Origin: Candidatus Hydrogenedens sp.
Lineage (GTDB): Bacteria > Hydrogenedentota > Hydrogenedentia > Hydrogenedentales > Hydrogenedentaceae
NCBI GenBank assembly: GCA_049968235.1
Contig: JBMFRC010000013.1
Coordinates: forward strand, 18,422-82,421
DNA length: 64,000 nt
Reading direction: 5' to 3'
Both the position numbers and the translations under genes were made by a program. Below the pieces are notes generated by a model. It had not been told where the DNA came from. It did no database searches and saw only the letters and a program-made list of their open reading frames with translations. Shown here in pieces: positions 20,952-35,195 of this stretch (the stretch's first letter is position 1; the number at the start of each line of letters is the position of its first letter).

Positions 20952-20985
20952 TTTAAATTAAAAAGGTATTTTTTCATTCTTTTAG

Positions 20986-21006
20986 GGAAGATGCCCACTT
21001 CCTTTT
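20986..21006 (+). terminator. possible rho-independent terminator (GGAAG-loop-CTTCC-TTTT)
   Basis: short hairpin plus T-run 35 nt after the GH172 stop. Confidence 0.3.
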
Positions 21007-21039
21007 ACATGAATAATATGCTCTAATGAGGTTATTTCC

Positions 21040-21501
21040 ATGAGTAAAAAAAGGATAGTTGTTGCTGGTGGTGTAGTTGTTGATACACAAAATAGGGTAC
21101 TTCTATTAGAGCGTAATGTAGTTAGAAATAATAAATATATAAATGAGATACGTTTACCTAAAGGACATGTAGATAAGGGAGAAACACATGAAAAATGTGC
21201 CTGTAGAGAAGTAGGCGAAGAAAGCGGGTATTGGGAAACCGAGATTATTGCCGATTTAGGATACGACCTGAGTAAATTTAAATATCAAGGTAAAAATATT
21301 ATACGAATTGAGCATTATTTTCTTATGAAAACAGAACCTGACAATAAAGGAAATCCCTCACCTATGGGGGACGAGGAAGCCCTTTTCCATACTATCTGGG
21401 TCCCCTTAGATACAGCAGAAGCGATGATGACTTACCCATCGGAAAGACACTTCATCCGTCGTGCCAAAGAATGGCTAAAAAGTCAGACCAGAAAAGTCTG
21501 A
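21040..21501 (+). CDS. NUDIX hydrolase
   Basis: Nudix box GHVDKGETHEKCACREVGEESGY. Confidence 0.75.
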   Translation: MSKKRIVVAGGVVVDTQNRVLLLERNVVRNNKYINEIRLPKGHVDKGETHEKCACREVGEESGYWETEIIADLGYDLSKFKYQGKNIIRIEHYFLMKTEPDNKGNPSPMGDEEALFHTIWVPLDTAEAMMTYPSERHFIRRAKEWLKSQTRKV

Positions 21502-21523
21502 ACTGTCCTATCTGTTCGAACCA

Positions 21524-22414
21524 CTAAATTAAAACGCCATCTTCCCAGCCTAATTTAACCAGTTCTATACGGTTATCATCGGCATTTCCCAGATGATATT
21601 TGTCCTGTGCCACCTGTATGTGATGAGGAGAAACAGCGAAAGGTTGTTCATTACCAAAATATTGTAATCGTTTTGCTTTTAATATTCGTAATCCTGTGGC
21701 ATCACAAGCAACTGGATCCGTGCCAATAACCAACCCCTGATAGTTCCATGTATACTCCTTATTATAGTGATGCGGTCCTTTCCCATGAAACAACGGGGTA
21801 ATCATAACAAGAATATTAAGTCGTGTTTTCCCTTTAACAATCGGCAGATCCCATAATCCTGCCAAATTTGCGCACGAATCCGCATGCCAGGTTGGAGGTT
21901 TTTCAGAAAACATAATGTAATTTTTCAACAGACTGCCAACACCTGCCCAATGATGTGTCCGCATGGGACGAACATTAATTAATGCAGTACTATTCTGGAA
22001 AATAGGATTTCGTAACACTCCACGGTCATCAACGGAAACTTTATCCGATGGCACCCCTGCCGATAGCACTCTGGTTTTTAAAATATCTTCCAGTTCGACA
22101 GGAGTACGAGGTGGCCCCGATACATTGCTTTTAATACCTACAATATCTTCAGGCTTAATTACCTTCTTCCAGGCTTCTTCAGGGGTAGTTGTTTGAAATA
22201 GATTTTTCACACCTTCATCAACCATTTTTTCCAGAACGGTTTTATTGATATTTCCATCTGCGTCCAGCAAATCCTTATCCCGTATAAGAACAACACGGGA
22301 TTTTTCTCCTGCTTGCGGAGATTGTGACTCGGAACTATAATGTGGTATGCCAAACAAGAATGCCGTGCCTAAGGCTCCTGTCTGTAAAAACTTTCTGCGA
22401 CTCGTTTTAATCAT
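21524..22414 (-). CDS. Tat-signal secreted protein of unknown function
   Basis: N-terminal SRRKFLQTGALGTAFLFG twin-arginine motif; family not recognised. Confidence 0.5.
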   Translation of the reverse strand: MIKTSRRKFLQTGALGTAFLFGIPHYSSESQSPQAGEKSRVVLIRDKDLLDADGNINKTVLEKMVDEGVKNLFQTTTPEEAWKKVIKPEDIVGIKSNVSGPPRTPVELEDILKTRVLSAGVPSDKVSVDDRGVLRNPIFQNSTALINVRPMRTHHWAGVGSLLKNYIMFSEKPPTWHADSCANLAGLWDLPIVKGKTRLNILVMITPLFHGKGPHHYNKEYTWNYQGLVIGTDPVACDATGLRILKAKRLQYFGNEQPFAVSPHHIQVAQDKYHLGNADDNRIELVKLGWEDGVLI

Positions 22415-22425
22415 AATTCTGGCTC

Positions 22426-23367
22426 CTATCGTTTTATCCTTGTTTCTATATCTTTAACATATAAGTCTGCAGTCTCTCTTTTCTTCCAATCGATAATCAA
22501 TATAAGATATTTATCACGGGAATGTATAAGTATCGAATTAAAGCCAAATTTCTTACTTCTTTCCTCTTTGCCCATTTCCTTTTCAGATTTATCAATAAAA
22601 TTTTTAAAATTTTGACCGACAAGCAAAGCCTTTTTCTTATCCTTATAACGAACAAGGATTATTTGAAACCGTTCATCCTGTTCAGGTAGAAAATAGCGAA
22701 CTAAAATTCCTTCTGTATCCTTGCCCAACTGCAATATATTTTCATCTGTGATGAAAAAGTGCACCTTTAAAAGGTCATAATCCTTAAAATAATGCACATG
22801 ACTTTTAACCTGTCCTTTTTCAGGGAGCAGATGTATAATTTCAGGTGGATTTCCTTTTTTGGGTATTTGATGGTCAATTATTTTGCCTAACTCCATTACT
22901 GTCTGATTTATCTCCGGAGAATCGCCCATTCCTACAATGGATATGAAATAACGGTCCTTCCAGAAAGCAAGTGAATTATTCATTCCTTCCGACTCAACCC
23001 CTAAACCCACATCTTTCTGGTCACGAATGTCATGATGATAGGCACCATACGCTAATGCGGAATTGCCCATATCAAAAATATCCATAAAAATCTCTACTTG
23101 CTGAGGATTAGACCAGCGATAAGCCAACACCTCTCTTACACCTAAGGAACGATAAACTTCTGCATTCCCATCGATATAATCGTATAACGTTTCCGAATCA
23201 TAACGGTCCGGATTTGTCTTTTCTAATTTCCATTGATTTACATTTTCCGGAAAAGAAAATACTATTGTTTCTTGTGTATTTTTATTTGTTGAATTCATAG
23301 TGGCACATGAAATACCTAAACATAGACATAAACAAACCATACATATTTCTATCTTTATTATATGCAT
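22426..23367 (-). CDS. hypothetical secreted/lipoprotein
   Basis: hydrophobic Cys-containing N-terminus; 11-nt gap to the downstream Tat protein suggests co-transcription. Confidence 0.45.
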   Translation of the reverse strand: MHIIKIEICMVCLCLCLGISCATMNSTNKNTQETIVFSFPENVNQWKLEKTNPDRYDSETLYDYIDGNAEVYRSLGVREVLAYRWSNPQQVEIFMDIFDMGNSALAYGAYHHDIRDQKDVGLGVESEGMNNSLAFWKDRYFISIVGMGDSPEINQTVMELGKIIDHQIPKKGNPPEIIHLLPEKGQVKSHVHYFKDYDLLKVHFFITDENILQLGKDTEGILVRYFLPEQDERFQIILVRYKDKKKALLVGQNFKNFIDKSEKEMGKEERSKKFGFNSILIHSRDKYLILIIDWKKRETADLYVKDIETRIKR

Positions 23368-23672
23368 TCACACAAACTTCCTAAAAAATTTATCTTGTGT
23401 CATTATACATCAATTCTTTAATTTTATAAAAGGAATCTGTTTCCCTAAAATTAAAATGAACATTATTTAATAACAATTTTTTATTGCATGAAGAATAAAT
23501 AAGAAATAGAAAGAAGGGAAAGAATTCTTATTAACACACATTACGATTGAGCGAATTTGTGGTTTATCATATAAAGTATTATTTAACTACCGTTCGGTAC
23601 TTTTTTAATAATACCTTATATTTCATTACAAATAAAATGGTAAACTTTCAACGAATTACCTGGAAATACAAA

Positions 23673-24050
23673 TTATTTAGCAAACTGCATATCTGAATAT
23701 GTATTATCATATAGATTGTTTCGGAACTTGGTCCCATATTCCTGTTCATACCAGGAATTAAACACATGGGCATACTTGATTATCCAGTCGTATGTAGCTT
23801 CAGTTCTAACATTTCTCCCCTGCTTTTCAGATTCAATCCATATATGTTTTTCTATCTCCTGTTTCTGGAGAATATTTTTGTGCAAGACCTTGATGTGATT
23901 CGGTGAAAATTCACATAAGTACCTTATCATTTCATCAATTATGTAGTTTTCAAGGGGGAAATTAAAAAACTGGCGAAGATTACATAAGAATAGTTCACGA
24001 TTACAACCTACGGATAAGAATGCTCTACCGTAACAACATTCACTATCCAT
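23673..24050 (-). CDS. hypothetical small Cys-rich protein in AT-rich islet
   Basis: 125-aa ORF flanked by about 300 and 170 nt AT-rich non-coding DNA. Confidence 0.3.
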   Translation of the reverse strand: MDSECCYGRAFLSVGCNRELFLCNLRQFFNFPLENYIIDEMIRYLCEFSPNHIKVLHKNILQKQEIEKHIWIESEKQGRNVRTEATYDWIIKYAHVFNSWYEQEYGTKFRNNLYDNTYSDMQFAK

Positions 24051-24223
24051 AAAACATACTCCTTTATAAAAAATAACATTATGAAAACATATATATAATC
24101 TATCAAAATTTTATACTAAATTCAACATTATTTGTCAACAATTATCAATAAATTTTTCCCATACTTTTGGTTAATTTTGTATTATTTCTATAAGTCGTTG
24201 ATATACCGCATATTATAACATTT

Positions 24224-25798
24224 CTATTGATGTGTCGTTTTTATAATTTTACTGTCGAGTTCTGCTATCCCTGCAATTTTTAACCGCCCTTTGTTAAGAC
24301 TTATTGTGATTTTGATTTTTTTGAATAACTTAATTTTATTGAATAAATCATTTATTTTTTCCGGGTTTTGAAATTGTAATACATTTGATTCCATTAGAAC
24401 TGCGACTGCATTGTTAATTTCTGTAATAAGTTTTTCCGGTTTCACCTGTAGAATCAATGAATAATTACCTTCAGATAAGGTGTTCTTATTTTTTATATGT
24501 TCTATTATCTGATTTTGTAATTCTCGGTTATTCGCAAATAGCAAAGAATCTTCTGCACACTGGATATGTAAATCTGTCTGAGAACTACCAATAAGAGGGA
24601 CAATATATTCATTGGAATTGGGAGAAGAAAGAGCCTTATTTTTCTCTCCAAGAACAATGATGGTAGGGTCGATAATTGCTTGAACAATATCTTCGCACAT
24701 ATTGGGGTTTGTTTTTGCAATAACACAATATCTGGGTATAAAGGGAATAATTTCATCTGTATAAAAAGAATCTACCGCAATATAAAACTCATTATTAACA
24801 AAAGGAGAAAAAGATTTTAACCAGTCTGCAAAGGGAATTTCTGTTGGATTGGTAAAGGGTTGTATAAGACTGGCTTTTGGTATGGTTTCAAAAGCACGGA
24901 GCCATGTTTTAATCGGTACACCTGTGTTAATAGAACAAGAAAAAAGTGTATCTACAGGTTCCTGTAAGGGGGATGAGACAACTTCCGAAAGTAAAATTGT
25001 CCACGGTGTTTCCATATCCGGAGTTATTTGTGTTTCACATTTAAGTCCCAATTGGTCTCTTGTTAAGGCAAGATAGAAATAAATTTGAGAAAAGAGTCCC
25101 TGAAAATCCTCATGTTGAGGTGTGAAAGTTCCCCATGCTAAATGCCTTTCCTGATTCCTCATGAGTTCAGCAGTGATGACTGTCTCTGTTTTTTTGTCTC
25201 CCTTTTGTGTTATGGATTGCACCAGTGTTTCGCGATTGGGTGATAAGAGCAGGACCCTTCCCTTACGTGCATAATATAATTTCTGTTCCGGTAGGTACCG
25301 CAGATTTAGACCACCTGCCCAATCTACTTCTATAGGCTGTGTCCATGAATAAAGTTTTTCAATAACACAACCAATGCATGATAGCCGAACAATTAACAGG
25401 GCATCTTCAAATGTTTTCAGGTCGTTCACAGAAAAATAGAAAAAGTCATAAATAAGATGTTTTATTACCCATAAAGGTATTCGTTGTTGGTCAGATAACA
25501 ATTTCTTTACTTCAAGTATCATTGAAGAAGGTTCTGCCAATTCCCAGAGAGGAGAGGCTATAAGGGTCTGGTAATTCTGCATAATTTGTGGACTGAAAAC
25601 TTGAAAGGCAGGTGCATTAGGAATAAATCGTTCCACAGGATATATATCTCTTGTTGACCATGTGAACCAGACGAAGAAAAGGAAAATAATCAGGGTAAAT
25701 AACTTCAATAAAAACTTTAAAAAACTTTTTTTAGGTCTTCGCCTTCGCATACCAGATACACGATATACACGCATAGTTTCACTCATAAAAATAATCAA
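24224..25798 (-). CDS. membrane-anchored hypothetical protein (N-terminal TM, large extracytoplasmic domain)
   Basis: Arg-rich stretch then one TM helix; ATGA overlap with upstream ceramidase-fusion gene. Confidence 0.5.
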   Translation of the reverse strand: MIIFMSETMRVYRVSGMRRRRPKKSFLKFLLKLFTLIIFLFFVWFTWSTRDIYPVERFIPNAPAFQVFSPQIMQNYQTLIASPLWELAEPSSMILEVKKLLSDQQRIPLWVIKHLIYDFFYFSVNDLKTFEDALLIVRLSCIGCVIEKLYSWTQPIEVDWAGGLNLRYLPEQKLYYARKGRVLLLSPNRETLVQSITQKGDKKTETVITAELMRNQERHLAWGTFTPQHEDFQGLFSQIYFYLALTRDQLGLKCETQITPDMETPWTILLSEVVSSPLQEPVDTLFSCSINTGVPIKTWLRAFETIPKASLIQPFTNPTEIPFADWLKSFSPFVNNEFYIAVDSFYTDEIIPFIPRYCVIAKTNPNMCEDIVQAIIDPTIIVLGEKNKALSSPNSNEYIVPLIGSSQTDLHIQCAEDSLLFANNRELQNQIIEHIKNKNTLSEGNYSLILQVKPEKLITEINNAVAVLMESNVLQFQNPEKINDLFNKIKLFKKIKITISLNKGRLKIAGIAELDSKIIKTTHQ

Positions 25799-28167
25799 AT
25801 CCCTGATTCTATGGATATAAATTCTGAAGGCTTTCCTTCATTATCTCTGACTGATAGCCAGACTTTATTTTCCGTCGGTTCAAAGATTACACTTAAACGA
25901 CTATTCCCATTCCATATTTGGGAAGGAGAACTATCTTGATTATCGGAAGATGTCATAATCGTTTTGAGTTCTTCCGGACTAATAATCCGTTCATCTTCTA
26001 TTTTTTTTATGAGATTTGAATATCTTTTTACAGTAGATTCCGAGGCAGTTGCAATGGAACCACAACCCAATAAGATACCCTGTTTAGAAAGGTCCTGAGC
26101 AATAGTATCTTCCGGTTTGAGCGAAGGGAATAGTAATGCAGACCATTTCCCTTTATTATCCTTCCCTGCAAGGAGTACATGGTATGCTTGTGGGATAATT
26201 ATTTTAGATATTTCTTCCACTGCCGACTCGAGGGTATTACATGTAGATAAAATATGTTTCATTGTAAATTCAGGACCCGGCGTATCCTCCGATAGATTTG
26301 TTTTTATAGAGGCATCCCGAGTTATAGACAAAACGATACCAGATTGATTCATCCCACATAGGGTTCCATCAAACCATGGAAAACCAATCTCAATAAAATT
26401 TACTCCATGGACAGGTTTATGTCGGAATATAACCGGCAATTCATTTATTGCCCAATCAACCGTATGAGCAATAAGAATATCCTTTGCTCCTGCTCGTTCT
26501 CCCAAAATAGCAACAGCGGTGCATAAGGGCGTATCAAATAGCGGATTATAAGATTGAGCATTCTGTATATTTATAGCATTTTGAAGAAGCCAGATTTTAT
26601 CGAACGGCATTTCCGCACCATCAGATATGCCTATGAGTTCATCTACTATTTCTGGATGCAATTTCTTTGCCCATGGTCGGATGCTAATTGCCATAGCAGG
26701 CAAGATTAAAGAACTAATATTTATCCATGATGATGGGATGAAGGAAAAGAAACCCTGTTCTGGCAGGTATCGTCCCTCCAGTATAGGTCTTTGTATTAAT
26801 TCATCAAATCGCTTCTGAATCTGCTCCTTTGAAAATTGTCCCCTTGCCGAACCTCTTTCGTAAGAAGTCCCCGATAGATTTATAATGGAAATGGAACCTA
26901 TCTTATCGATTTGAGGAATATCCACGGGAGTAATCTGTAATTCCGGCTTTTCTATTCCTATTAAAGATAAACATGTATTCAAGACCCACTTTTCTGCCTG
27001 AGGCCCAAAAAAATGAGCTCCTGCCTCGTATGTTTTATCAAAAAGGAGATGTTTCGGTACAAAATACACCAGATAATCATTTGCCAGACCCACTGTGAAA
27101 TGTGCTTTAAATCCTGCCTCTAACGCATGTTCACGAAGTTGGAGTGCGTATTCCACACACACTTCTCCGGGGAAAAAGGAAATAGCCAAACCATTTACCT
27201 GGAGTGAATGGAACAGTACCTTTTCCGGGAAAAAGGTCGCTATACTTATGGGTAGAGGTATTTCTTTTGCTGTTAATTTTAATTTTGCATCGGAAAGAGG
27301 AACACTTTTCTGTGCTTCATAAACACGCCGTGCCAAAATCCTCCCTACTTTTTCAGTTCGAGCCCAGCCGGAACTTTGTTCGGGGGCTTGAATAGTCTGG
27401 TTCCCTTCTGCACCGTTCAGAAAGAATGGGACACAACCCGGTGAAGATAACTGTTCTATTTCAAGATAGTAATATCCCGGATAATCGGAAGAGAAGGAAT
27501 AAAAATCCTCATCCCCAATGGATGTGGGATGCCCTGCCATATTGGCAATTATTGCAATCTCATTCCCGTTTGCATCTTCAATCACAATAAAACCAATTTG
27601 CGGGTCCATCGGACCTACCGGATAACGGCGATTGCAGGTTAAATCGTTTTGCTGAATACTCCCATACCCCAATACAGCATTTTGTGCTTTCTCTTTTGCA
27701 TCGCGAAGTGCCTGACTGATAATACGTGCTGTGCGTTCTACAAGTTCGGGGATATATCTGCCAGAGACAAAGCGGATAGGATAATTTTTGCACATTCCCC
27801 CAAAACCATTGTGGGTATGGGTCGCAGTCATAATAATATTTTGTGACGGGAAATTTTCAGGTGCCATAATAATAACTTTTTCTCGCAGTTCTCGGTCAAT
27901 AACACACAAATCCAAACTAACGAGAAATAGTTCTGTTTCATCATCTGCAAGATAAAGGACATGCGCCCACAAGGGGTCATGAACTGCTCTCGCTCCTTTT
28001 CCTAATCTCGCACCATAACCATTCAGAGGAACACCTAAATCCGGGGTAATTTCAACTTTAACCGCTCCTGCTTTAAGAGCCTCCGTACAAAATGGATAAA
28101 ATAACAGCAAAGAAAATATAAAACAGATAATAAAGACTTTATTTAAAAAGATACTCTGCTTTTTCAT
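25795..28167 (-). CDS. secreted fusion protein: neutral/alkaline ceramidase N-domain plus C45 (isopenicillin-N acyltransferase-like) Ntn-hydrolase domain
   Basis: N-terminal half has the ceramidase Zn block TATHTHNGFGG and GYGARLG; C-terminal about 360 aa begins GTSYERGSARGQ...(compare IAT GTPFEIGYEHGS) and carries the Cys nucleophile context PLCTAVAIL (IAT DGCTTAYC). Confidence 0.65.
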   Translation of the reverse strand: MKKQSIFLNKVFIICFIFSLLLFYPFCTEALKAGAVKVEITPDLGVPLNGYGARLGKGARAVHDPLWAHVLYLADDETELFLVSLDLCVIDRELREKVIIMAPENFPSQNIIMTATHTHNGFGGMCKNYPIRFVSGRYIPELVERTARIISQALRDAKEKAQNAVLGYGSIQQNDLTCNRRYPVGPMDPQIGFIVIEDANGNEIAIIANMAGHPTSIGDEDFYSFSSDYPGYYYLEIEQLSSPGCVPFFLNGAEGNQTIQAPEQSSGWARTEKVGRILARRVYEAQKSVPLSDAKLKLTAKEIPLPISIATFFPEKVLFHSLQVNGLAISFFPGEVCVEYALQLREHALEAGFKAHFTVGLANDYLVYFVPKHLLFDKTYEAGAHFFGPQAEKWVLNTCLSLIGIEKPELQITPVDIPQIDKIGSISIINLSGTSYERGSARGQFSKEQIQKRFDELIQRPILEGRYLPEQGFFSFIPSSWINISSLILPAMAISIRPWAKKLHPEIVDELIGISDGAEMPFDKIWLLQNAINIQNAQSYNPLFDTPLCTAVAILGERAGAKDILIAHTVDWAINELPVIFRHKPVHGVNFIEIGFPWFDGTLCGMNQSGIVLSITRDASIKTNLSEDTPGPEFTMKHILSTCNTLESAVEEISKIIIPQAYHVLLAGKDNKGKWSALLFPSLKPEDTIAQDLSKQGILLGCGSIATASESTVKRYSNLIKKIEDERIISPEELKTIMTSSDNQDSSPSQIWNGNSRLSVIFEPTENKVWLSVRDNEGKPSEFISIESGI

Positions 28168-28297
28168 AATAATTTCTCATATCTATAATCTCTTATTGTA
28201 TCACTGATGATAAGCAATAAGCGACTATATTACAGATGAAACAAATTCGCGAGAAAGATGCCCAACCGTCAACAGATTATCTTTTTATTAGCCTACA

Positions 28298-28705
28298 TTA
28301 ATGATGATGATTACATGTCAAACCCTCTTCATGCTTCAAAGAACCTTGAAGAAAAAGAGTAAGGGCTGTTTTTATATCTTTTTCTGATGTGATTATCGTT
28401 CTTATATTAGCAGACTCGAATCTGCTTTTCATCCCGTATCCCATTCCACCCGCAATTACCACATCAATATTCGCAAATCTTTGTGCTACTTGTTCGTGCG
28501 TATCTATAGAATGATTATGCTCATGGGAATGCGGTTGTGAATGTTCTGAATCATGAGAATGTTGGGCATGCCCGGTAATTGTATTCGGGATATACTCTTC
28601 ATTTACGATATTACCGTTCTCAATCTCGACAATTAAAAAACCTTTCGTTCGCCCAAAATGTGCTGAAATTGTTTTTTTATTATTTGTTGGAATAACAACT
28701 TTCAT
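28298..28705 (-). CDS. NifX/NifB-C-like (dinitrogenase FeMo-cofactor biosynthesis fold, PF02579-like) protein with His-rich insert and C-terminal CNHHH
   Basis: MKVVIPTNNKK..AHFGRTKGFLIVEI and ..IDVVIAGGMGYGM blocks; insert HAQHSHDSEHSQPHSHEHNHS. Confidence 0.6.
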   Translation of the reverse strand: MKVVIPTNNKKTISAHFGRTKGFLIVEIENGNIVNEEYIPNTITGHAQHSHDSEHSQPHSHEHNHSIDTHEQVAQRFANIDVVIAGGMGYGMKSRFESANIRTIITSEKDIKTALTLFLQGSLKHEEGLTCNHHH

Positions 28706-28738
28706 AATAGTTCCTCTCGAATTTCAGATTAGTAATTT

Positions 28739-29065
28739 TTACAGTTCTATGTTTTTCACCTTTGAAGCATGCAGGATGTTCCCTCTGGAACTGCGATAAA
28801 ATGCATGGGGTCCTCTACCACAGCGACATGGACCGATATAAGTCCATTCGGAAGATTCTGTTGTTTCGTTCGACAAATTGCTTTCCGGTGGGTTATCTGC
28901 TGGATTGTTCGGAGACATCCATCTCCAACCTTGACGATAATAACCCGGTGAAGATAATCCGGGGGTCGGACTGTTAGTAGACATCCATCTCCGACCTTGA
29001 CCACCACCGAAACGGAATTGTCCACGATTATTAAATGAATTAGCAAAATTTCTTTGGGTTCTCAT
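28739..29065 (-). CDS. small Arg/Gly/Pro-rich protein with internal tandem repeat (RRWMSTNSP / WRWMSPNNP) and CRCGRGPH motif
   Basis: AAGGAG SD 8 nt before the ATG; DNA-level direct repeat GACATCCATCTCC(A/G)ACCTTGAC about 75 bp apart; overlapping alternative-frame ORFs reflect low complexity. Confidence 0.45.
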   Translation of the reverse strand: MRTQRNFANSFNNRGQFRFGGGQGRRWMSTNSPTPGLSSPGYYRQGWRWMSPNNPADNPPESNLSNETTESSEWTYIGPCRCGRGPHAFYRSSRGNILHASKVKNIEL

Positions 29066-29089
29066 TGTTAATCTCCTTATTATTAAAGT

Positions 29090-29485
29090 TCATTGTTTAC
29101 TTTCATTTTTATTCCGGTCTGATTCTAAAAAATAAGCCTTCTGTTTACAATGCCTATGGCAATGTCTACCACCACCACGCTCCTTCTGTCTGCAAACAAA
29201 ATTGACAGGTCCCCCCATTATCCGAATGGGCTTCCCCTCTACAATAGCACCAACAATCTTCCTGCGTGCCTGCTCAATGATTCGTGAAAATGTGGGGCGT
29301 GAGACTCCCATTTCTTGCCCCGCTTCTTCATGATACATTCCCAAATAATCAGCGAGACGGAGTGCTTCAAACTCATCCAGAGAAAGCACTACTGGCTCTC
29401 TTTCCATTCCTCCCTGTTCACAAGGAATGAATTCCTTAACGGGCGGGCATGCATTCAATCTTCGGGAACAATAGGGTCTTGCCAT
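29090..29485 (-). CDS. DUF134 (UPF0251) family predicted DNA-binding protein with Cys/His-rich C-terminal tail
   Basis: Cys-containing N-terminal block (YCSRRLNACPP...FIPCEQ) plus sigma-70 region-4-like HTH (LSLDEFEALRLADYLGMYHEEAGQEMGVSRPTFSRIIEQARRKI) typical of DUF134; tail CRQKERGGGRHCHRHC. Confidence 0.6.
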   Translation of the reverse strand: MARPYCSRRLNACPPVKEFIPCEQGGMEREPVVLSLDEFEALRLADYLGMYHEEAGQEMGVSRPTFSRIIEQARRKIVGAIVEGKPIRIMGGPVNFVCRQKERGGGRHCHRHCKQKAYFLESDRNKNESKQ

Positions 29486-29514
29486 TATAATTCCTTTTTA
29501 ATTTTCACGATTCA

Positions 29515-29536
29515 TTATGAACATATGTTCATAATT
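29515..29536. promoter_or_regulatory. perfect 22-bp palindrome ATTATGAACATATGTTCATAAT, 30 nt upstream of the DUF134 gene and in the divergent aceE control region
   Basis: read directly; the sequence equals its own reverse complement. Confidence 0.6.
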
Positions 29537-29694
29537 ATAACGCAGTTTCGTAGCAAAAGTAAACAAAAATAACTAATTTTTTAGAAAGATACTCAAAAAA
29601 AAAAAAATAAATTAATCAATTAATTTGTTAGTATAATTGGATAATTAACATGGAATATTTAGTAAAATAAAAAAAAACAGAGGGGACGCTATTT

Positions 29695-32388
29695 ATGAGT
29701 AGTTCTGATTATAAAAATGAGATGCAAGAACAAATCAGTGCAATGACTTTTCCGGATGAAGAATGGATTGATGCATTAAAAGCCTATCTGGAAGAACGAG
29801 GTCCTCAGGCAACAGCAAAGTTGATTCGAAGACTTCAGGATTATACTTACCTTTTAGGTATTCGCAAGCCCTGCCCCGCAACTACGCCGTATGTTAATTC
29901 CATTCCTGTATCGGAACAGCCGGAATATCCAGGTAATCGTGAATTAGAACGAATTATTAAATCATATATCCGCTGGAATGCAATGGCAATGGTAGTTCGT
30001 GCAAACCGCGAAGCAGATGGTATTGGGGGGCATATATCTACTTATGCTTCTGTAGCCACCCTATATGAAGTAGGATTTAACCATTTTTTCAAGGCACGAA
30101 CTGAAGACTACGGTGGTGATTTAATTTATTTTCAGGGACATGCTTCACCGGGAATATATGCACGAGCTTACTTAGAGGGACGGCTTTCCGAGAATGACCT
30201 AAAAAACTTTCGACGCGAATTAAATAAAGGAGGAGGCTTGCCGTCATATCCACATCCACGACTTATGCCGGGATTCTGGCAATTCCCAACCGTTTCTATG
30301 GGACTGGGTCCTATTATGGCAATATATCAGGCACGGTTTAACAAATATTTAGAGAATCGGGGTTTGAAGCCTAAAAATGGTGGATATGTTTGGGCATTTT
30401 TGGGAGATGGCGAGACCGATGAGCCGGAAACATTAGGTGCTATTGGTTTAGCCAGTCGCGAGAAATTAGATAACCTAATTTTCGTCATCAACTGTAACTT
30501 ACAACGTTTAGATGGTCCTGTTCGTGGCAATGGAAAAATTATACAGGAGTTGGAAGCCATATTCCGCGGAGCAGGCTGGAATGTAATTAAAGTGGTTTGG
30601 GGTAGTGATTGGGACCCGCTATTTGAGAAGGATGAACATGGTTTATTGGTAAACGCATTAGGGGATATTGTTGATGGTGAGTATCAGAAATTTTCTGTTT
30701 CATCCGGGGAATATATTCGCAAAAAAATGATAGAACATGAACCGCGTCTGGCTCCGTATCTCGAACAGGTTTCAGATATTCAATTACGCCAATTGCGTAG
30801 GGGTGGACATGACCCGGTAAAGGTATATTCTGCGTATTATCATGCGTTACAAACACAAGGGACTCCTACGGTAATATTGGCAAAGACAATCAAAGGATAT
30901 GGACTTGGTGAAAGTGGCGAAGGGAAGAATATAACCCATCAACAAAAGAAACTCAATGAAGATGAACTACGCGAATTTCGGGCTCGCTTCGGGATTCCTG
31001 TCTCCGATGATGAGATTGCCTTCGCCCCGTTTTGTAAACCACCGGAAGACCATCCCGCTATGATATACCTCCAGGAACGACGCAAGGCATTAGGCGGGTA
31101 TTTGCCCCATCGCGATGTATTGGCACCGCCTTTACCTGCACCTGAAAACGAGCTGTTTGATGAGTTTTATAAAGGGACACCTCGTCCCGTCTCCACAACG
31201 ATGGCATTTGTTTCTATTTTACGAAAATTATTACAACATGAACGGATTGGCAAATTAATCGTTCCTATTGTGCCAGACGAAGCACGCACTTTCGGTATGG
31301 AAGGATTATTCCGTCAAATAGGAATTTATTCTTCGCAAGGACAAAAATACGAACCTGTAGATTCCGAATCGGTTCTGTATTACAAAGAAACAACAGATGG
31401 GCAAATCCTTGAAGAAGGGATTTCAGAAGCAGGTTCAATGGCTTCTTTTATTTCTGCAGGAACCGCTTATGCCAGTCATGGAATTAATACCATTCCTTTT
31501 TTCATCTTCTATTCTATGTTCGGATTTCAGCGGATTGGTGATTTAATCTGGGCATCTGCAGATATGAAAGTACGTGGATTTCTCGTAGGTGGCACTGCGG
31601 GCAGAACAACCCTTGCCGGGGAAGGTCTGCAACATCAGGATGGACACAGTCACCTCCTCGCTATGTCTGTTCCCTGCCTTCGTGCATATGACCCCGCGTA
31701 CGCCTACGAAATAGCCATTATTGTGCAGGAAGGCATTCGTAGCATGTATGAAAAGCAGGAACCGGTATTTTATTATTTAACTGTGGGCAATGAAAACTAC
31801 ACCATGCCACCTATCCCGGCGGGGAAAAAAATACGCGATGGGATTATTAAAGGTTTATATCTACTTCGACCTTCTTCCTTAAAAAAATCAAAAATGAAAG
31901 TAAATTTATTAGGCAGTGGTTCATTACTTAATGAAGCACTAAAAGCACAGTTCGTTCTCGAAGAGGAATTTAATATCTCTGCAGATGTATGGAGTGCCAC
32001 GAGTTATAAAATGCTCCGTGAAAATGCCCTGGAAACAGAACGCTGGAATCAGCTACATCCAATATCTACCAAAAAAATTCCGTATGTAACCGAATGCCTG
32101 AACAACAATGCACATGCAACCATTGCCGTTTCCGATTATGTAAAACTTGTTCCGGACAGTATATCCCGATGGGTTCCGCAAAGGTTTATATCCTTAGGAA
32201 CAGATGGTTTTGGGCGTTCCGATACACGAGAAGCCCTGCGACATTACTTTGAGGTAGATAGCCGGTATATCATACTATCTGCCCTGTCTGCACTGGCTCA
32301 AGATAAGAAAATAGATACAAATATCGTAAAAAAATACATGCGGTCCGCAGATATACCTGCAAATAAAAAGTCTCCTATGGACTTATAA
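29695..32388 (+). CDS. aceE: pyruvate dehydrogenase E1 component, homodimeric type
   Basis: 897 aa; ThDP-binding GDGE..N block (FLGDGETDEPE...NCN) and overall AceE architecture; GAGGGGA SD. Confidence 0.9.
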   Translation: MSSSDYKNEMQEQISAMTFPDEEWIDALKAYLEERGPQATAKLIRRLQDYTYLLGIRKPCPATTPYVNSIPVSEQPEYPGNRELERIIKSYIRWNAMAMVVRANREADGIGGHISTYASVATLYEVGFNHFFKARTEDYGGDLIYFQGHASPGIYARAYLEGRLSENDLKNFRRELNKGGGLPSYPHPRLMPGFWQFPTVSMGLGPIMAIYQARFNKYLENRGLKPKNGGYVWAFLGDGETDEPETLGAIGLASREKLDNLIFVINCNLQRLDGPVRGNGKIIQELEAIFRGAGWNVIKVVWGSDWDPLFEKDEHGLLVNALGDIVDGEYQKFSVSSGEYIRKKMIEHEPRLAPYLEQVSDIQLRQLRRGGHDPVKVYSAYYHALQTQGTPTVILAKTIKGYGLGESGEGKNITHQQKKLNEDELREFRARFGIPVSDDEIAFAPFCKPPEDHPAMIYLQERRKALGGYLPHRDVLAPPLPAPENELFDEFYKGTPRPVSTTMAFVSILRKLLQHERIGKLIVPIVPDEARTFGMEGLFRQIGIYSSQGQKYEPVDSESVLYYKETTDGQILEEGISEAGSMASFISAGTAYASHGINTIPFFIFYSMFGFQRIGDLIWASADMKVRGFLVGGTAGRTTLAGEGLQHQDGHSHLLAMSVPCLRAYDPAYAYEIAIIVQEGIRSMYEKQEPVFYYLTVGNENYTMPPIPAGKKIRDGIIKGLYLLRPSSLKKSKMKVNLLGSGSLLNEALKAQFVLEEEFNISADVWSATSYKMLRENALETERWNQLHPISTKKIPYVTECLNNNAHATIAVSDYVKLVPDSISRWVPQRFISLGTDGFGRSDTREALRHYFEVDSRYIILSALSALAQDKKIDTNIVKKYMRSADIPANKKSPMDL

Positions 32389-32413
32389 CACATAATTAAA
32401 GAAGGAATAGACC

Positions 32414-33739
32414 ATGCCAAAGGAATTCCGATTACCCTCGCTGGGGGAAAATGTTGCAGAAGCAACTATTGGTAAGATTTTAGTAAAGGTTGGAGATATT
32501 ATCCGTAAAGGACAGACTGTCTTGGAAATTGAAACGGATAAAGCGGTGGCAGAAATACCCTCTTCGCAGGAGGGTAAAATACTAGAAATCCATGTGAAGG
32601 AAGGGCAAAAAGTAAAGCCCGGCATCTTAATTTTTACTATAGAGGAGATAACAGGGACGAGCACACCACCTCCTGAGCCTGTTTCTACACCTGAAGGGGG
32701 AAAAGTATCTCCACCAAAACAAGAAAGGCTTGTTTCTCCTCTTGTCGAAAAACCTGTGCCATTACGACCTTCTTCAGTTTCGGTAGTCGCAAGTCAAAAA
32801 GCAACATCGAATATTCCCATTTTGGCTTCCCCATCGGTTCGTAGATTGGCACGCGAATTAGGAGTTTCACTTGAAGAAGTCCCTGCATCGGACACGTCCG
32901 GAAAAATCTCTACGGAAGATGTTATTGCGTATCATAAGAGAAAGACAGAAAATATAGCGATAGTGGAAACGGAGATAAGCCATGATATGCCCACATCTGA
33001 ATCTGCAGAAGAGATAGATATATCATCTTCCAAAGATTCCTGGGGACCTGTGGTTATTGAACCGATGAGTACCATTCGCAAAAAAACCGCGGAACAAATG
33101 ATGCGTAGTTGGTCTGCTCCACACGTAACCCATTTTGATAAAGCGAATATAACGCAATTGGAAGAACTCCGTGAGGCATGGTCAAAGAAAATTCAATCCG
33201 CCGGCGGTAGATTAAGCGTACTCATTTTTACATTGAAAGTCGTTGCCGAAGCATTAAAAAAATTCCCAAAGTTTAATACCAGCATTGACCTCGAAAAAGA
33301 ACAAATTATCTATAAAAAATATTATCATATCGGTGTTGCGGTTGATACAGAATACGGACTTCTGGTTCCTGTCCTGCGAAATGTGGATAAGAAGTCAATT
33401 AAAGAACTTTCTATTGAACTCCCAAAATTAGCGGAGAAAGCCCGACAACGGAAATTAACTTTAGAAGAATTGCAGGGTGCCACATTCACTATAAGTAATT
33501 TAGGCGGTTTAGGGGGTACTGGCTTTACACCGATTATAAATGCGCCACAGGTGGCTATTTTGGGGATGTCCCGTTCCAGTATGGAACCTATATACCAAAA
33601 TGGTAGTTTTATTCCACAACTCATGCTACCTTTAAGTTTGTCGTATGACCATCGTGTTATCGATGGAGCAGAGTCCGCTCGTTTTGTTCGCTGGATTTGT
33701 AATGCTCTTGAAAATCCATGGAATATATTTCTTGAATAA
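32414..33739 (+). CDS. aceF: dihydrolipoamide acetyltransferase E2
   Basis: single lipoyl domain (EIETDKAVAEIPS), Pro/Ser linker, E3-binding domain, catalytic DHRVIDGA. Confidence 0.85.
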   Translation: MPKEFRLPSLGENVAEATIGKILVKVGDIIRKGQTVLEIETDKAVAEIPSSQEGKILEIHVKEGQKVKPGILIFTIEEITGTSTPPPEPVSTPEGGKVSPPKQERLVSPLVEKPVPLRPSSVSVVASQKATSNIPILASPSVRRLARELGVSLEEVPASDTSGKISTEDVIAYHKRKTENIAIVETEISHDMPTSESAEEIDISSSKDSWGPVVIEPMSTIRKKTAEQMMRSWSAPHVTHFDKANITQLEELREAWSKKIQSAGGRLSVLIFTLKVVAEALKKFPKFNTSIDLEKEQIIYKKYYHIGVAVDTEYGLLVPVLRNVDKKSIKELSIELPKLAEKARQRKLTLEELQGATFTISNLGGLGGTGFTPIINAPQVAILGMSRSSMEPIYQNGSFIPQLMLPLSLSYDHRVIDGAESARFVRWICNALENPWNIFLE

Positions 33740-33767
33740 TTAAGAATTACAAACAGAAGGAGGTCTT

Positions 33768-35195
33768 ATGCCCGAAGTAATTCAAACACAGGTTGCAGTC
33801 ATTGGTGCAGGTCCGGGTGGTTATGGATGCGCCTTTATGTGTGCCGATTTAGGACTACAAACGGTTCTTATCGATGTAGAAAAGAATCCAGGCGGGACAT
33901 GCCTCTATCGAGGTTGTATCCCAACAAAATCTTTACTCCACATATCTCATGTAATTTCCAATGCGTTAGAGGCAAAAAAATTTGGCGTTCACTTCCAGAA
34001 ACCAAAATTAGATATTAATGAAATACGAAAAAATGTGCAGGGTGTCGTCGAACACTTAACCGGTGGTTTGGGTCAACTAACGAAGTTACGAAATATTAAT
34101 TATGTTCAGGGACGAGCCAGTTTCCTGGATTCAAACACATTAGAAGTTTTCTTGATGGATGGTCGAGAATTACGTATCCATGCAGAATATACTGTCATTT
34201 CTGCTGGTTCGAGACCCGCCTTATTTGGACAACCTATTGATTCGCCAGATATTATGAATTCCAATACTGCTATCAACATAGAGGATATACCCGAACGATT
34301 ACTGGTTATTGGTGGTGGATATATCGGGCTGGAATTAGGTACTGTTTATGCCACTTTAGGCTCTGAAGTAACACTCGTGGAGGTTACTGATGGACTACTC
34401 CCCGGTGTTGACCGTGATTTAGTGCGTCCTTTAGAAAAACATTTAGAAAATGTTATATATCAAATCCATTTAAAAACACTGGTCAAACAATTAAAACCGC
34501 AAAAGAAAGGTATTTCTGTTGAACTGGAAGGTGCGGAAATAAAAAAAACACAACAGATTTTTGATAAGGTTCTTGTATCAGTTGGCAGAAAACCCAATAG
34601 TAGCGGTTTAGGTTTAAAAAATACAAATGTGTCTGTGGACGAAAAAGGATTTATCCGTGTTGACGAACAAAGACACACAACTGACCCCTATATCTTTGCC
34701 ATTGGCGATGTTGCAGGAGGACCTATGTTAGCCCATAAAGCAACACATGAGGGACGAGTTGTTGCAGAGGTCATCTCCGGCAAGAATGTCGCCTTTGAAC
34801 CGCAAGCTATCCCTGCTGTTGTTTTCACTGACCCTGAAATTGCGTGGTGTGGACTTACCGAAGAACAAGCACGCTCAAAAAATATACCCGTTCAAGTATC
34901 AAGATTCCCATGGTCTGCTTCTGGCAGAGCCATGACAATGTTCCGTGGGGAGGGATTGACAAAACTCATAACCCATGCAGAAACACAACAAATTCTCGGT
35001 TTCGGTATCGTCGGAGCCAATGCTGGTGAACTTATCGGTGAAGCTACATTGGCTATTGAGATGGGTGCGACGCTCGAAGACCTCGACTTAACCATACACC
35101 CGCATCCTACTCTCAGTGAAACCATCATGGAATCTGCAGGTGCTTTACTCGGTAAAAGTACCCATGTTTACCGCAAACCCCAACGAAAAGAATAA
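33768..35195 (+). CDS. lpdA: dihydrolipoyl dehydrogenase E3
   Basis: FAD GAGPGG, redox-active GGTCLYRGCIPTK, C-terminal HPHPTLSE. Confidence 0.9.
   Translation: MPEVIQTQVAVIGAGPGGYGCAFMCADLGLQTVLIDVEKNPGGTCLYRGCIPTKSLLHISHVISNALEAKKFGVHFQKPKLDINEIRKNVQGVVEHLTGGLGQLTKLRNINYVQGRASFLDSNTLEVFLMDGRELRIHAEYTVISAGSRPALFGQPIDSPDIMNSNTAINIEDIPERLLVIGGGYIGLELGTVYATLGSEVTLVEVTDGLLPGVDRDLVRPLEKHLENVIYQIHLKTLVKQLKPQKKGISVELEGAEIKKTQQIFDKVLVSVGRKPNSSGLGLKNTNVSVDEKGFIRVDEQRHTTDPYIFAIGDVAGGPMLAHKATHEGRVVAEVISGKNVAFEPQAIPAVVFTDPEIAWCGLTEEQARSKNIPVQVSRFPWSASGRAMTMFRGEGLTKLITHAETQQILGFGIVGANAGELIGEATLAIEMGATLEDLDLTIHPHPTLSETIMESAGALLGKSTHVYRKPQRKE

What the first reader, a model, noticed from the sequence alone, without database searches (positions are those of the whole stretch)
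28298..29536. Operon of DUF134 regulator, Arg/Gly tandem-repeat mini-protein and His-rich NifX-like protein behind a perfect 22-bp palindrome
Three small genes on the minus strand are spaced by 24 and 33 nt, and each has Cys/His-rich patches (CRQKERGGGRHCHRHC; CRCGRGPH; HAQHSHDSEHSQPHSHEHNHS...CNHHH). DUF134 proteins are recurrently linked to NifB/NifX-fold (PF02579) genes in anaerobes, but the inserted repeat protein and the His-rich insert are unusual. Thirty nt upstream lies ATTATGAACATATGTTCATAAT, an exact 22-bp palindrome, which is an ideal operator for a dimeric HTH protein, presumably DUF134 itself. The palindrome is shared with the divergent aceE promoter region. The cluster reads straight into the ceramidase-fusion operon, forming an 8-gene same-strand block down to 21524. 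The trio may be a metal- or cofactor-handling module with autoregulation.
Basis: partly seen in the sequence, partly recalled or inferred. Interest (0 to 1): 0.65.

Follow-up and report, generated by a model that had tools for sequence, protein, structure and literature searches.

The report
DUF134 operon with its conserved operator
A three-gene operon in a Candidatus Hydrogenedens genome encodes a predicted DNA-binding repressor and two small metal-binding-type proteins, and the perfect palindrome in front of it matches a motif found in front of genes for this uncharacterised regulator family (DUF134) across many bacterial phyla, so it is probably the family's operator and the family's function can now be tested directly.

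Summary
Three minus-strand genes lie 24 and 33 nt apart: DUF134 (29090-29485), a 108-aa mini-protein (28739-29065) and a PF02579/NifX-like protein (28298-28705). They sit behind an exact 22-bp palindrome (29514-29535) that abuts a sigma-70-like -10 box. Both family assignments pass Pfam thresholds.

The trio is a conserved unit in Hydrogenedentes. The same gene order recurs in Nitrospirales, Caldisericota, WOR-3, Caldatribacterium, Ignavibacteriales and Bathyarchaeia. The mini-protein is a regular partner defined by the motif YIGPCRCGxGPHAFY, not an oddity. Only its 22-aa duplication is species-specific.

A blind metagenome scan with TTATGARCATATGYTYATAA returned 120 loci. At least 91 have a DUF134 gene starting a few to about 35 nt downstream. 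The motif often fills the 17-bp spacer of a consensus TTGACA/TATAAT promoter. Three of these genes are DUF134-PF02579 fusions.

Best reading: DUF134 is a Cys-bearing autorepressor that binds this operator. The PF02579 protein is its cofactor-binding partner, and the mini-protein supplies an Arg/Gly/Trp-rich cationic segment like the IssA tail. The ligand is unknown.

The proposed links to the ceramidase operon and to aceE are not conserved. I found no literature on the operator.

The parts
29558..29563 (-). -35-like hexamer TTTACT of the operon promoter
   Evidence: Promoter scan. The block TGTTTACTTTT is invariant in four diverged Hydrogenedentes intergenic regions.
29534..29539 (-). -10 hexamer TATAAT, overlapping the palindrome by 2 nt
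   Evidence: Invariant in the alignment A2.
29514..29535 (.). Exact 22-bp palindrome ATTATGAACATATGTTCATAAT; proposed DUF134 operator covering the predicted transcription start
   Evidence: Unique in the window. Conserved as an island in Hydrogenedentes. The same motif lies upstream of DUF134 genes in at least 9 other bacterial lineages. At least 91 of 120 blind metagenome hits have a DUF134 gene immediately downstream.
29090..29485 (-). DUF134/UPF0251 protein, 131 aa: sigma-70-region-4-like HTH core (residues about 30-95), N-terminal MARPYC, C-terminal Cys/His tail C98...H108-C109-H-R-H-C113
   Evidence: PF02001 E=1.3e-22. AF2 core pLDDT >90, tail <50. Foldseek top hits are ECF sigma region 4 and the DeoR HTH, rmsd 0.7-1.0 A over about 47 aa, but with weak E-values of 0.04-0.3. 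C6, C109 and C113 are at least 90% conserved in 73 homologs.
28739..29065 (-). Mini-protein, 108 aa: disordered cationic Arg/Gly/Trp/Pro-rich residues 1-70 (contains the 22-aa duplication) plus a small beta-knuckle at residues 72-104 carrying C80, C82, H87 and H99 (motif YIGPCRCGRGPHAFY...G..H)
   Evidence: Homologs and invariant motif. AF2 model. Composition: pI 12.0 for residues 1-60. Repeat. No Pfam hit.
28298..28705 (-). PF02579 (NifX/NifB-C/IPR003731-type) protein, 135 aa, with a His-rich loop (9 His in residues 44-72) and a C-terminal CNHHH
   Evidence: PF02579 E=6.9e-16. Closest solved relative is TM1290 (1t3v/1o13, E=3e-4). H16, H46, H65, H70, C131 and H133 are invariant in 7 relatives. 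Loop subtypes.
28168..28297 (-). 130-nt gap before the ceramidase-C45 fusion gene; the boundary of the conserved trio
   Evidence: No intrinsic terminator and no unusual fold, z = -0.1. The downstream neighbours differ in related genomes.

Best explanation
The locus is a self-contained, sigma-70-driven three-gene operon. It is a minimal member of a widespread gene-cluster type found in anaerobes (DUF134 regulator, small Gly/Arg-rich protein, PF02579 cofactor-binding protein). Proposed mechanism: a dimer of the DUF134 protein binds the 22-bp palindrome through its sigma-4-like helix-turn-helix. Because the site abuts the -10 box and covers the transcription start, binding blocks RNA polymerase and represses the operon, including the DUF134 gene itself. 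A thiophilic metal, metal-sulfur cluster or related signal is sensed through the conserved cysteines (C6 plus the C-terminal Cys/His patch) and/or through the PF02579 protein acting as the ligand-binding partner, and this changes DNA binding. The two structural products would then hold or buffer that inorganic species: the PF02579 fold with its His-rich loop and CxHHH tail, and the mini-protein with a Cys2His2 knuckle and a disordered cationic Arg/Gly/Trp segment that resembles the IssA tail supplied in trans. Shown here: the operon structure, the family assignments, conservation of the trio, and the cross-phylum linkage of the operator to DUF134 genes and its position inside promoters. Inferred: that DUF134 is the binder, that binding represses, and that the ligand is a metal or metal-sulfur species.
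For: (1) The promoter-plus-palindrome block is a conserved island in otherwise diverged Hydrogenedentes intergenic DNA. It is identical in L011, which has a different upstream neighbour. (2) The motif TTATGARCATATGYTYATAA lies directly upstream of DUF134 genes in Nitrospirales, Caldisericota, Deltaproteobacteria (two copies), Caldatribacterium, Coatesbacteria, WOR-3, Ignavibacteriales and Desulfobacterales. In 681 kb of loci plus the window, 23 of 25 hits with at most 2 mismatches lie within 100 nt upstream of a DUF134 gene or a mini-protein gene. (3) A blind metagenome scan with the 20-mer gave 120 loci. Ninety have a DUF134 start within 200 nt downstream (mostly 2-35 nt), one more was found by Pfam, and three have PF02579 directly downstream. 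Only four of the 120 contain the mini-protein, so the motif tracks DUF134. (4) Architecture in 88 unique sites: about half read cTTGACa-N2-3-TTATGAGCATATGCTTATAAT. That is a consensus -35, a 17-bp spacer filled by the operator, and a -10 formed by the operator's 3' half. The others have the operator just after the -10, as in the window. Both are classic repressor positions. (5) The HTH recognition helix differs by operator class: SRPTF[GS]R with ATGARCATATGYTCAT in bacteria, SQPTFNR with ATGAATTATAATTCAT in Thermoplasmata, and SRGT[VI]WR with TGTGCA-NN-TG[AC]ACA in Bathyarchaeia. (6) Three operator-preceded genes are DUF134-PF02579 fusions, and one carries the same His-rich loop subtype. (7) About half of the operator-preceded DUF134 genes are followed by PF02579. 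Other downstream genes encode Mrp/NUBPL ATPases, Fer4-MinD ATPases, DUF5320, ArsP_1 permeases, SAM methyltransferases, DUF364 and CoADR-rhodanese, a metal/sulfur theme. (8) C6 and the C-terminal Cys pair are at least 90% conserved in 73 homologs. (9) Residues 1-60 of the mini-protein (pI 12.0; 8 Arg, 8 Gly, 9 aromatic, 7 Pro) resemble the unstructured Arg/Trp/Gly/Pro-rich IssA tail that is proposed to bind anionic thioferrate (PMC5524996).
Against: There is no experimental binding data. The helix-operator covariation is confounded by phylogeny. Archaeal DUF134 proteins lack the Cys tail and Bathyarchaeial ones lack C6, so the cysteines cannot be the universal sensor. The C-terminal tail is modelled at low confidence. 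Only one operator copy occurs in the 64-kb window, and the rest of the genome could not be scanned. In some lineages the mini-protein follows a PadR regulator or stands alone, so its link to DUF134 is not obligatory. Nothing here identifies the ligand. The His-rich features point to Ni/Zn/Co-type ions as much as to metal-sulfur clusters. Foldseek E-values for the HTH are weak (0.04-0.3).
Confidence: 0.62

Rival explanations
1. The palindrome is a LexA (SOS) box. Its core GAACATATGTTC equals the GAAC-N4-GTTC Cheo-box core of Gram-positive-type LexA, so the operon would be DNA-damage inducible and DUF134 would be irrelevant to the site.
For: Sequence resemblance only (the Cheo-box consensus CGAACATATGTTCG is from my own knowledge).
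Against: In other phyla the same element reads GAGCATATGCTT/GCTC, which departs from GAAC/GTTC. At least 91 of 120 blind hits precede DUF134 genes. None of the remaining flanking ORFs hit LexA, RecA or Uvr families. Related palindromes precede the cluster in archaea, which lack LexA as far as I know.
Confidence: 0.03
2. The palindrome is an operator, but a different factor binds it: either the mini-protein (basic N-terminus, with a coiled coil in most relatives, bZIP-like) or a regulator encoded elsewhere. DUF134 would have another target.
For: In Aminicenantes and Chloroflexota loci the motif lies directly upstream of the mini-protein gene with no adjacent DUF134 gene. Methanococcales have a related palindrome before a stand-alone mini-protein gene. 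Weak bZIP-like hits come from the coiled coil.
Against: Only 4 of the 120 operator loci contain the mini-protein, while at least 91 contain DUF134. The window's mini-protein lacks the coiled coil. DUF134 has a confident sigma-4-type HTH, and its recognition helix changes with operator class.
Confidence: 0.1
3. DUF134 binds the site but acts as a MerR-like activator from within the promoter spacer rather than as a repressor.
For: In about half of the sites the operator lies between -35 and -10, as MerR-family operators do.
Against: The spacers are the optimal 17-18 bp with consensus TTGACA/TATAAT, not the 19-20 bp suboptimal spacers that define MerR-type promoters (the MerR spacer rule is from my own knowledge; the counts are). 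In the window and in a second class of sites the operator lies downstream of the -10, over the start site. The fold is sigma-4-like, not MerR winged-helix plus coiled coil.
Confidence: 0.08
4. Same regulatory logic, but the cargo is a free divalent metal ion (Ni, Zn, Co or Cu). The operon would be a metal-buffering or chaperone module of the SmtB/SmtA or RcnR type, not a metal-sulfur cluster or thiometallate handler.
For: The PF02579 protein has 14 His, 9 of them in a 29-residue loop, plus a CNHHH tail. The Hydrogenedentes and Nitrospirales regulators have His-enriched tails (HCHRHC, FCHRRR.C), whereas most homologs have RCCRxHD. So His enrichment appears in both proteins of the same lineages.
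Against: Characterised PF02579/IPR003731 proteins bind inorganic clusters: FeMo-co, the Mo-Cu sulfide cluster of Orp8, Fe-S in MrpORP, thioferrate in IssA (PMC6345978; PMC5524996). Related operator-controlled operons are rich in Fe-S carrier ATPases. The cationic Arg/Gly/Trp segment suits an anionic ligand.
Confidence: 0.25
5. The trio is functionally part of one eight-gene transcription unit with the ceramidase-C45 fusion, DUF6599 and DUF362 genes.
For: All eight genes are on the same strand. No terminator is predicted in the 130-nt gap. The same adjacency is seen in two assemblies of the same species.
Against: In every other Hydrogenedentes locus where the downstream gene is on the contig and oriented (L003-L009), the trio is followed by convergent, unrelated genes. 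In other phyla the ceramidase never appears in the cluster.
Confidence: 0.1

Closest known systems
Orange-protein (ORP) gene cluster of Desulfovibrio vulgaris (Orp3/4/5/8/9, MrpORP)
   Same: An anaerobe-associated cluster built around a single-domain PF02579 protein. Related operator-controlled DUF134 operons contain the same partners: Mrp/NUBPL ATPases, Fer4-MinD ATPases and small Gly-rich proteins (PMC6345978).
   Different: The window operon has no ATPases. It uses a sigma-70-type promoter with a DUF134 operator, whereas ORP uses sigma-54 plus the activator DVU2106. Its PF02579 protein is the His-loop subtype, not the Orp8 type. I could not check whether Orp5 (DVU2105) is a DUF134 or DUF5320 protein.
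IssA iron-sulfur storage protein of Pyrococcus furiosus
   Same: An IPR003731/PF02579 globular domain together with an unstructured cationic Arg/Trp/Gly/Pro-rich repeating segment proposed to wrap anionic thioferrate (PMC5524996). The window encodes both kinds of element.
   Different: Here the two elements are on separate polypeptides. The PF02579 protein ends in CNHHH and has a His-rich loop. The mini-protein adds a Cys2His2 knuckle that IssA lacks. Thioferrate binding is untested.
Autoregulated metal or cluster sensor-repressors (IscR/Rrf2, ArsR/SmtB, CsoR/RcnR types)
   Same: The logic is the same: a small dimeric repressor with Cys ligands, a palindromic operator overlapping its own promoter, and co-transcription with the proteins that handle the sensed species.
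   Different: The fold and family are unrelated: a sigma-70-region-4-like HTH, PF02001. The sensor site and ligand are unknown. A partner protein (PF02579) may supply the sensing, as the fusions suggest.
DUF5320 (PF17253) small proteins
   Same: Same genomic niche next to DUF134 and PF02579. Same layout in the wider family: a Gly/Pro motif, an Arg/Gly/Trp-rich region and a C-terminal coiled coil. 14 of 45 relatives of the mini-protein hit PF17253.
   Different: The window protein has no Pfam hit and lacks the coiled coil. Profile-profile similarity is confined to that coiled coil. Its core motif CRCGxGPHAFY replaces the GTGPMGMGPMTGRG motif of DUF5320.
TM1290 / MTH1175 / PH0822 structural-genomics PF02579 proteins
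   Same: Closest solved relatives by sequence, with the same single-domain size. TM1290 also ends in HDHHH as deposited.
   Different: Similarity is weak (E=3e-4 to 0.02), they have no long His-rich loop, and their functions are unknown.

Membership tests
DUF134 / UPF0251 (PF02001) | Pfam HMM score above the gathering threshold | tested here: met
   80.7 bits against 27, residues 2-93. The source annotation of the identical protein is 'DUF134 domain-containing protein'.
DUF134 / UPF0251 (PF02001) | NCBIfam equivalog PRK04217 (NF003257) cutoff | tested here: not met
   70.7 bits against a cutoff of 115. It is a family member but not that equivalog.
DUF134 / UPF0251 (PF02001) | Helix-turn-helix DNA-binding core | tested here: met
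   AF2 core pLDDT >90 with helices 36-47, 52-59 and 63-83. Best PDB matches are sigma-70 region 4 and the DeoR HTH, rmsd 0.7-1.0 A, with weak E-values. Sub-threshold Sigma70_r4 hits.
Nitro_FeMo-Co / IPR003731 (PF02579) | Pfam HMM score above the gathering threshold | tested here: met
   58.8 bits against 26.3, residues 10-119.
NifX proper (TIGR02663) | Equivalog cutoff and a nif context | tested here: not met
   20.1 bits against 112, N-terminal 39 residues only. No nif genes were seen in the ORFs examined at 20000-34000. 'NifX-like' should be read as fold only.
MrpORP (NF041136) | P-loop Mrp/NBP35 domain fused to a PF02579 domain | tested here: not met
   42.7 bits against 450. Only the C-terminal Di-Nase part aligns (profile positions 265-365).
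DUF5320 (PF17253) | Pfam HMM match | tested here: not met
   No hit even at E<=10 for the window protein and its Hydrogenedentes orthologs. 14 of 45 wider relatives hit, but the hhalign overlap is only the coiled coil that is absent here.
IssA-type iron-sulfur storage protein | IPR003731 domain followed on the same chain by a cationic Gly/Arg/aromatic tail | tested here: not met
   The PF02579 protein ends ...GLTCNHHH with no tail. A tail-like segment exists, but on the separate mini-protein.
IssA-type iron-sulfur storage protein | Thioferrate binding and nanoparticle formation | not testable with these tools
   Requires purification and XAS/TEM, as in PMC5524996.
ORP complex cluster | Mrp/NBP35 and Fer4-MinD ATPase genes in the cluster; sigma-54 promoter with its activator | tested here: not met
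   None of the eight same-strand proteins has these domains. The promoter is sigma-70-like. Relatives of the operon do carry the ATPases.
LexA (Cheo-type) SOS box | GAAC-N4-GTTC palindrome upstream of SOS genes across the regulon | tested here: not met
   The core matches in the window, but the orthologous sites read GAGC...GCTY and precede DUF134 genes, not SOS genes.
MerR-type spacer operator | Palindrome within an over-long 19-20 bp -35/-10 spacer | tested here: not met
   Spacers are 17 bp in the metagenome sites and 18 bp in the window, where the operator lies after the -10.

The most novel reading that the evidence does not exclude
DUF134/UPF0251 is an ancient family of autorepressors spanning bacteria and archaea. 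Its operator core (…CA-TA-TG… flanked by lineage-specific half-sites) and its recognition helix have co-evolved from bacteria to Thermoplasmata, Bathyarchaeia and possibly Methanococcales. It senses an inorganic metal-sulfur or thiophilic-metal species not by itself alone but through a PF02579 partner, which may be separate or fused. The mini-protein is a new Cys2His2 small-protein family that supplies an IssA-like cationic tail in trans. Together these would define a previously undescribed homeostasis circuit for metal-sulfur species in anaerobes.
Probability: 0.3. Interest if true: 0.8.

Novelty: new variant of a known kind. Interest (0 to 1): 0.6.

Why it matters
DUF134/UPF0251 and DUF5320-like proteins are widespread in anaerobic bacteria and archaea. 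I found essentially no functional literature on them. Single-domain PF02579 proteins (orange protein, IssA) are still poorly understood players in metal-sulfur metabolism. This work assigns a specific operator, conserved across phyla, to the family. It shows the operator sits inside near-consensus promoters. It also finds DUF134-PF02579 fusions. Together these turn a 'domain of unknown function' into a concrete, cheap-to-test regulatory hypothesis: EMSA with a 22-mer, and reporter fusions. They also give a handle for defining the regulon, and hence the physiological signal, in many uncultured lineages.

Tried and rejected
Literature: whole-word searches for DUF134, PF02001, UPF0251, DUF5320, PF17253, COG1342 and the operator sequences returned nothing functional. 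I could not establish whether Orp5 (DVU2105 / Dde_3197, said to resemble a [2Fe-2S] protein) is a DUF134 or DUF5320 protein. The key paper, PMC3133258, is not held.

LexA box: rejected (see rivals).

Rex box: rejected on half-site spacing, judged from my own knowledge of Rex operators.

Rfam scan of 27900-29900: only a sub-threshold chance hit.

Terminator or stable structure in the 28168-28297 gap: none.

Further copies of the palindrome in the window: none beyond chance.

Solved structures: none for DUF134, and only weak relatives for the PF02579 protein.

DUF5320 membership of the mini-protein: rejected at sequence level.

My local PF02579 HMM drifted on a second iteration. I rebuilt it with one strict iteration.
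Full report
**Observation.**
The window comes from a Candidatus Hydrogenedens MAG. Three minus-strand ORFs lie at 29090-29485 (131 aa), 28739-29065 (108 aa) and 28298-28705 (135 aa). They are separated by 24 and 33 nt, and each has a Shine-Dalgarno-like GGAG/AGGA. Pfam assigns the first to DUF134 (PF02001, 80.7 bits, cutoff 27) and the third to Nitro_FeMo-Co (PF02579, 58.8 bits, cutoff 26.3). The middle protein has no Pfam or NCBIfam hit, even at E<=10. The 22-bp palindrome ATTATGAACATATGTTCATAAT (29514-29535) is exact and unique in the window. It overlaps by two bases a TATAAT box that has TTTACT 18 nt upstream, so it covers the expected transcription start.

**The trio is a conserved unit, and the ceramidase block is not part of it.**
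Orthologs of the mini-protein were found in other Hydrogenedentes assemblies and metagenomes. In every locus the order is DUF134, mini-protein, PF02579. Where the downstream gene is on the contig and oriented (L003-L009), it is convergent and unrelated (a TPR protein, or NYN/alanine racemase). The ceramidase-C45 fusion follows only in this species. No terminator is predicted in the 130-nt gap, so read-through here cannot be excluded. The divergent pyruvate dehydrogenase operon is the upstream neighbour in most Hydrogenedentes loci, but not in L011, which still carries the identical palindrome. In an alignment of four intergenic regions, the block from the -35 through the palindrome is a conserved island within diverged sequence. 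A second island, nearer aceE, looks like the aceE -10.

**The mini-protein.**
Eight close homologs share the invariant motif Y-I-G-P-C-R-C-G-R-G-P-H-A-F-Y...G...H. The window protein differs from its nearest relative (86 aa) by a 22-residue internal duplication, visible as a 34-nt direct repeat at 66-nt spacing. An exhaustive HMMER search found about 45 cluster representatives, all small proteins with the same core, and most with a C-terminal coiled coil. Fourteen of these 45 hit DUF5320. However, profile-profile comparison with canonical DUF5320 proteins aligns only the coiled coil, which the window protein lacks. AlphaFold models residues 1-70 as disordered. Residues 72-104 form a small three-stranded knuckle (pLDDT 75-91) carrying C80, C82, H87 and H99. 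Residues 1-60 have pI 12.0 with 8 Arg, 8 Gly, 9 aromatic and 7 Pro residues. This is close to the described composition of the IssA tail, which is thought to wrap anionic thioferrate (PMC5524996).

**Distribution of the gene order.**
A scan of species-representative genomes with the motif gave 80 loci from many anaerobic and thermophilic bacteria and archaea. With local HMMs, 79 loci had a mini-protein call. Of these, 39 have a PF02579 gene immediately downstream and 15 have DUF134 immediately upstream. Twelve have the full order, in Nitrospirales, Caldisericota, Coatesbacteria, Caldatribacterium, WOR-3, Ignavibacteriales and Bathyarchaeia.

**The palindrome is probably the DUF134 operator.**
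Upstream of the DUF134 genes in those distant phyla the same element recurs, with consensus TTATGARCATATGYTYATAA. In 681 kb of fetched DNA, 23 of 25 matches with at most 2 mismatches lie within 100 nt upstream of a DUF134 or mini-protein gene.

I then used the 20-mer, without any protein information, to scan metagenome contigs. In 90 of them a DUF134 gene starts within 200 nt downstream, typically 8-34 nt. One more was recognised by Pfam, three have a PF02579 gene directly downstream, and several of the rest are cut by contig ends. Only four of the 120 contain the mini-protein, so the motif tracks DUF134. The flanking sequences of 88 unique sites are unrelated.

In about half of these sites the arrangement is cTTGACa-N2-3-TTATGAGCATATGCTTATAAT. 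That is a consensus -35, a 17-bp spacer occupied by the operator, and a -10 formed by the operator's 3' half. In the others, as in the window, the operator follows the -10. A near-consensus promoter whose spacer or start site is a conserved palindrome is the signature of a tightly repressed promoter. The 17-18-bp spacing argues against a MerR-like mechanism.

Archaeal clusters carry related but distinct palindromes just after a TATA box:
- ATGAATTATAATTCAT in Thermoplasmata.
- TGTGCA-NN-TG[AC]ACA in Bathyarchaeia, and TGTGCATATGCACA in Helarchaeota.
- ACACATATGTGT in Methanococcales.

The HTH recognition helix of DUF134 changes in step: SRPTF[GS]R, SQPTFNR and SRGT[VI]WR. This is suggestive but confounded by phylogeny.

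**The regulator.**
AlphaFold gives a confident core (residues 30-95). Its best structural matches are sigma-70 region 4 domains and the B. subtilis DeoR HTH, with rmsd 0.7-1.0 A over about 47 residues but weak E-values. No DUF134 structure is solved. In 73 bacterial homologs C6 and a C-terminal Cys pair (consensus R-C-C-R-x-H-D) are at least 90% conserved. The Hydrogenedentes and Nitrospirales clade has His-enriched versions (HCHRHC). Some homologs have CxxC...CxxC ribbons, and archaeal ones lack the tail.

**The PF02579 protein.**
It belongs to a subtype with SAHFGR, NTxTGH, a His-rich loop, DxH and a C-terminal CxHH(H). This differs from the ORP/IssA-like subtype, which has GGAGIQAA and often a GRGMGRGRG tail. 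Its closest solved relative is TM1290.

**Functional coupling.**
Three operator-preceded genes encode DUF134-PF02579 fusions, and one has the His-loop subtype. About half of the operator-preceded DUF134 genes are followed by PF02579. Other recurrent downstream genes encode Mrp/NUBPL and Fer4-MinD ATPases (the ORP-complex partners described in PMC6345978), DUF5320, ArsP_1 permeases with SAM methyltransferases, DUF364 and CoA-disulfide-reductase/rhodanese. This is a consistent metal/sulfur theme.

**Mechanism, with its status.**
- Shown: operon structure, family assignments, conservation of the trio, operator-DUF134 linkage, and operator position in promoters.
- Inferred with good support: DUF134 binds the palindrome and represses its own operon.
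- Inferred with moderate to weak support: the signal is a thiophilic metal or metal-sulfur species sensed through the conserved cysteines and/or the PF02579 partner. The PF02579 protein and the mini-protein together hold that species, the latter acting like an IssA tail in trans.
- A free-ion (Ni/Zn/Co) role suggested by the His enrichment remains a serious alternative.

**Rivals considered.**
A LexA box is rejected. The core GAAC-N4-GTTC matches, but orthologous sites read GAGC/GCTY, precede DUF134 genes rather than SOS genes, and related palindromes occur in archaea. Binding by the mini-protein or a third factor is unlikely given the 4 against 91 counts, but is not excluded for lineages where the motif precedes a mini-protein gene alone. 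MerR-like activation is unlikely. An eight-gene functional unit with the ceramidase block is not conserved.

**Novelty.**
The components belong to catalogued but uncharacterised families, and the cluster type is related to the ORP and IssA systems. What I could not find described anywhere in the searchable literature is:
- the operator and its cross-phylum conservation;
- the DUF134-PF02579 fusions read as a regulator-sensor pair;
- the CRCGxGPHAFY mini-protein family.

I rate the locus a new variant of a known kind, of moderate to high interest because it makes the function of DUF134 directly testable.

Noticed in passing
L017, L019, L026, L027, L030, L045, L055, L058 (gene immediately upstream of the mini-protein gene, e.g. 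L027:3511-3891): In Aquificota, Deferribacteres and Thermodesulfobacteriota the mini-protein gene is preceded by a PadR-family regulator (PF03551, E=4e-19) instead of DUF134. This looks like a non-orthologous replacement of the regulator.
   Followed up: partly
L024:3715-3930, L028:1191-1376, L031:15-206, L051:3801-3986, L072:2984-3178; L021:3361-3912: A 45-71-aa double zinc-ribbon protein ([43 protein letters not shown]) sits just upstream of the mini-protein in several lineages. In Caldisericota it is fused to the C-terminus of DUF134 (183 aa). It may be a fourth recurrent component of the cluster.
   Followed up: partly
L104, L138, L145, L115, L197, L210 (metagenome loci): Short DUF134 genes (about 100 aa) preceded by the operator head operons that encode an ArsP_1 permease (PF03773), often with a SAM methyltransferase. 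This hints that some family members control export or methylation of a thiophilic metalloid.
   Followed up: partly
L034, L042, L043, L060, L073, L074, L077, L079, L082, L087, L088 (about 40-60 nt upstream of the mini-protein start): In Methanococcales a stand-alone mini-protein gene is preceded by a TATA box followed by a conserved ACACATATGTGT-type palindrome. It shares the CATATG core of the bacterial operator. Whether these genomes encode DUF134 elsewhere was not checked.
   Followed up: no
window 29621-29640 (plus-strand TATAAT at 29632-29637): A second conserved block (TAATTATACTAACAAATT on the minus strand) in the aceE-DUF134 intergenic region of Hydrogenedentes is probably the aceE -10 region. 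It lies about 100 bp from the palindrome.
   Followed up: partly
window 25795-28167 (minus strand): A 790-aa fusion of a neutral/alkaline ceramidase N-terminal domain (PF04734) with a C45 autoproteolytic acyltransferase/hydrolase domain (NF040521, 89.7 bits against 85). It is followed by unannotated 524-aa and 125-aa ORFs and by DUF6599 and DUF362 proteins.
   Followed up: no
L174:4165-5868, L196:3566-5257: A CoA-disulfide-reductase-like flavoprotein with a C-terminal rhodanese domain lies directly after DUF134-PF02579 in L174 (Pfam). L196 has a same-sized ORF (563 aa) in the same position, which was not scanned individually. This links the regulon to persulfide or polysulfide chemistry.
   Followed up: no
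L094, L105 and other metagenome loci where the operator has no DUF134 gene nearby: Among operator copies with no DUF134 gene nearby, single flanking ORFs hit MoeA, DUF1847, OsmC, CusB/HlyD, ExbB and canonical DUF5320. One search reports hits per family, not per locus, so the hits are not assigned to individual loci. These are possible further regulon members.
   Followed up: partly
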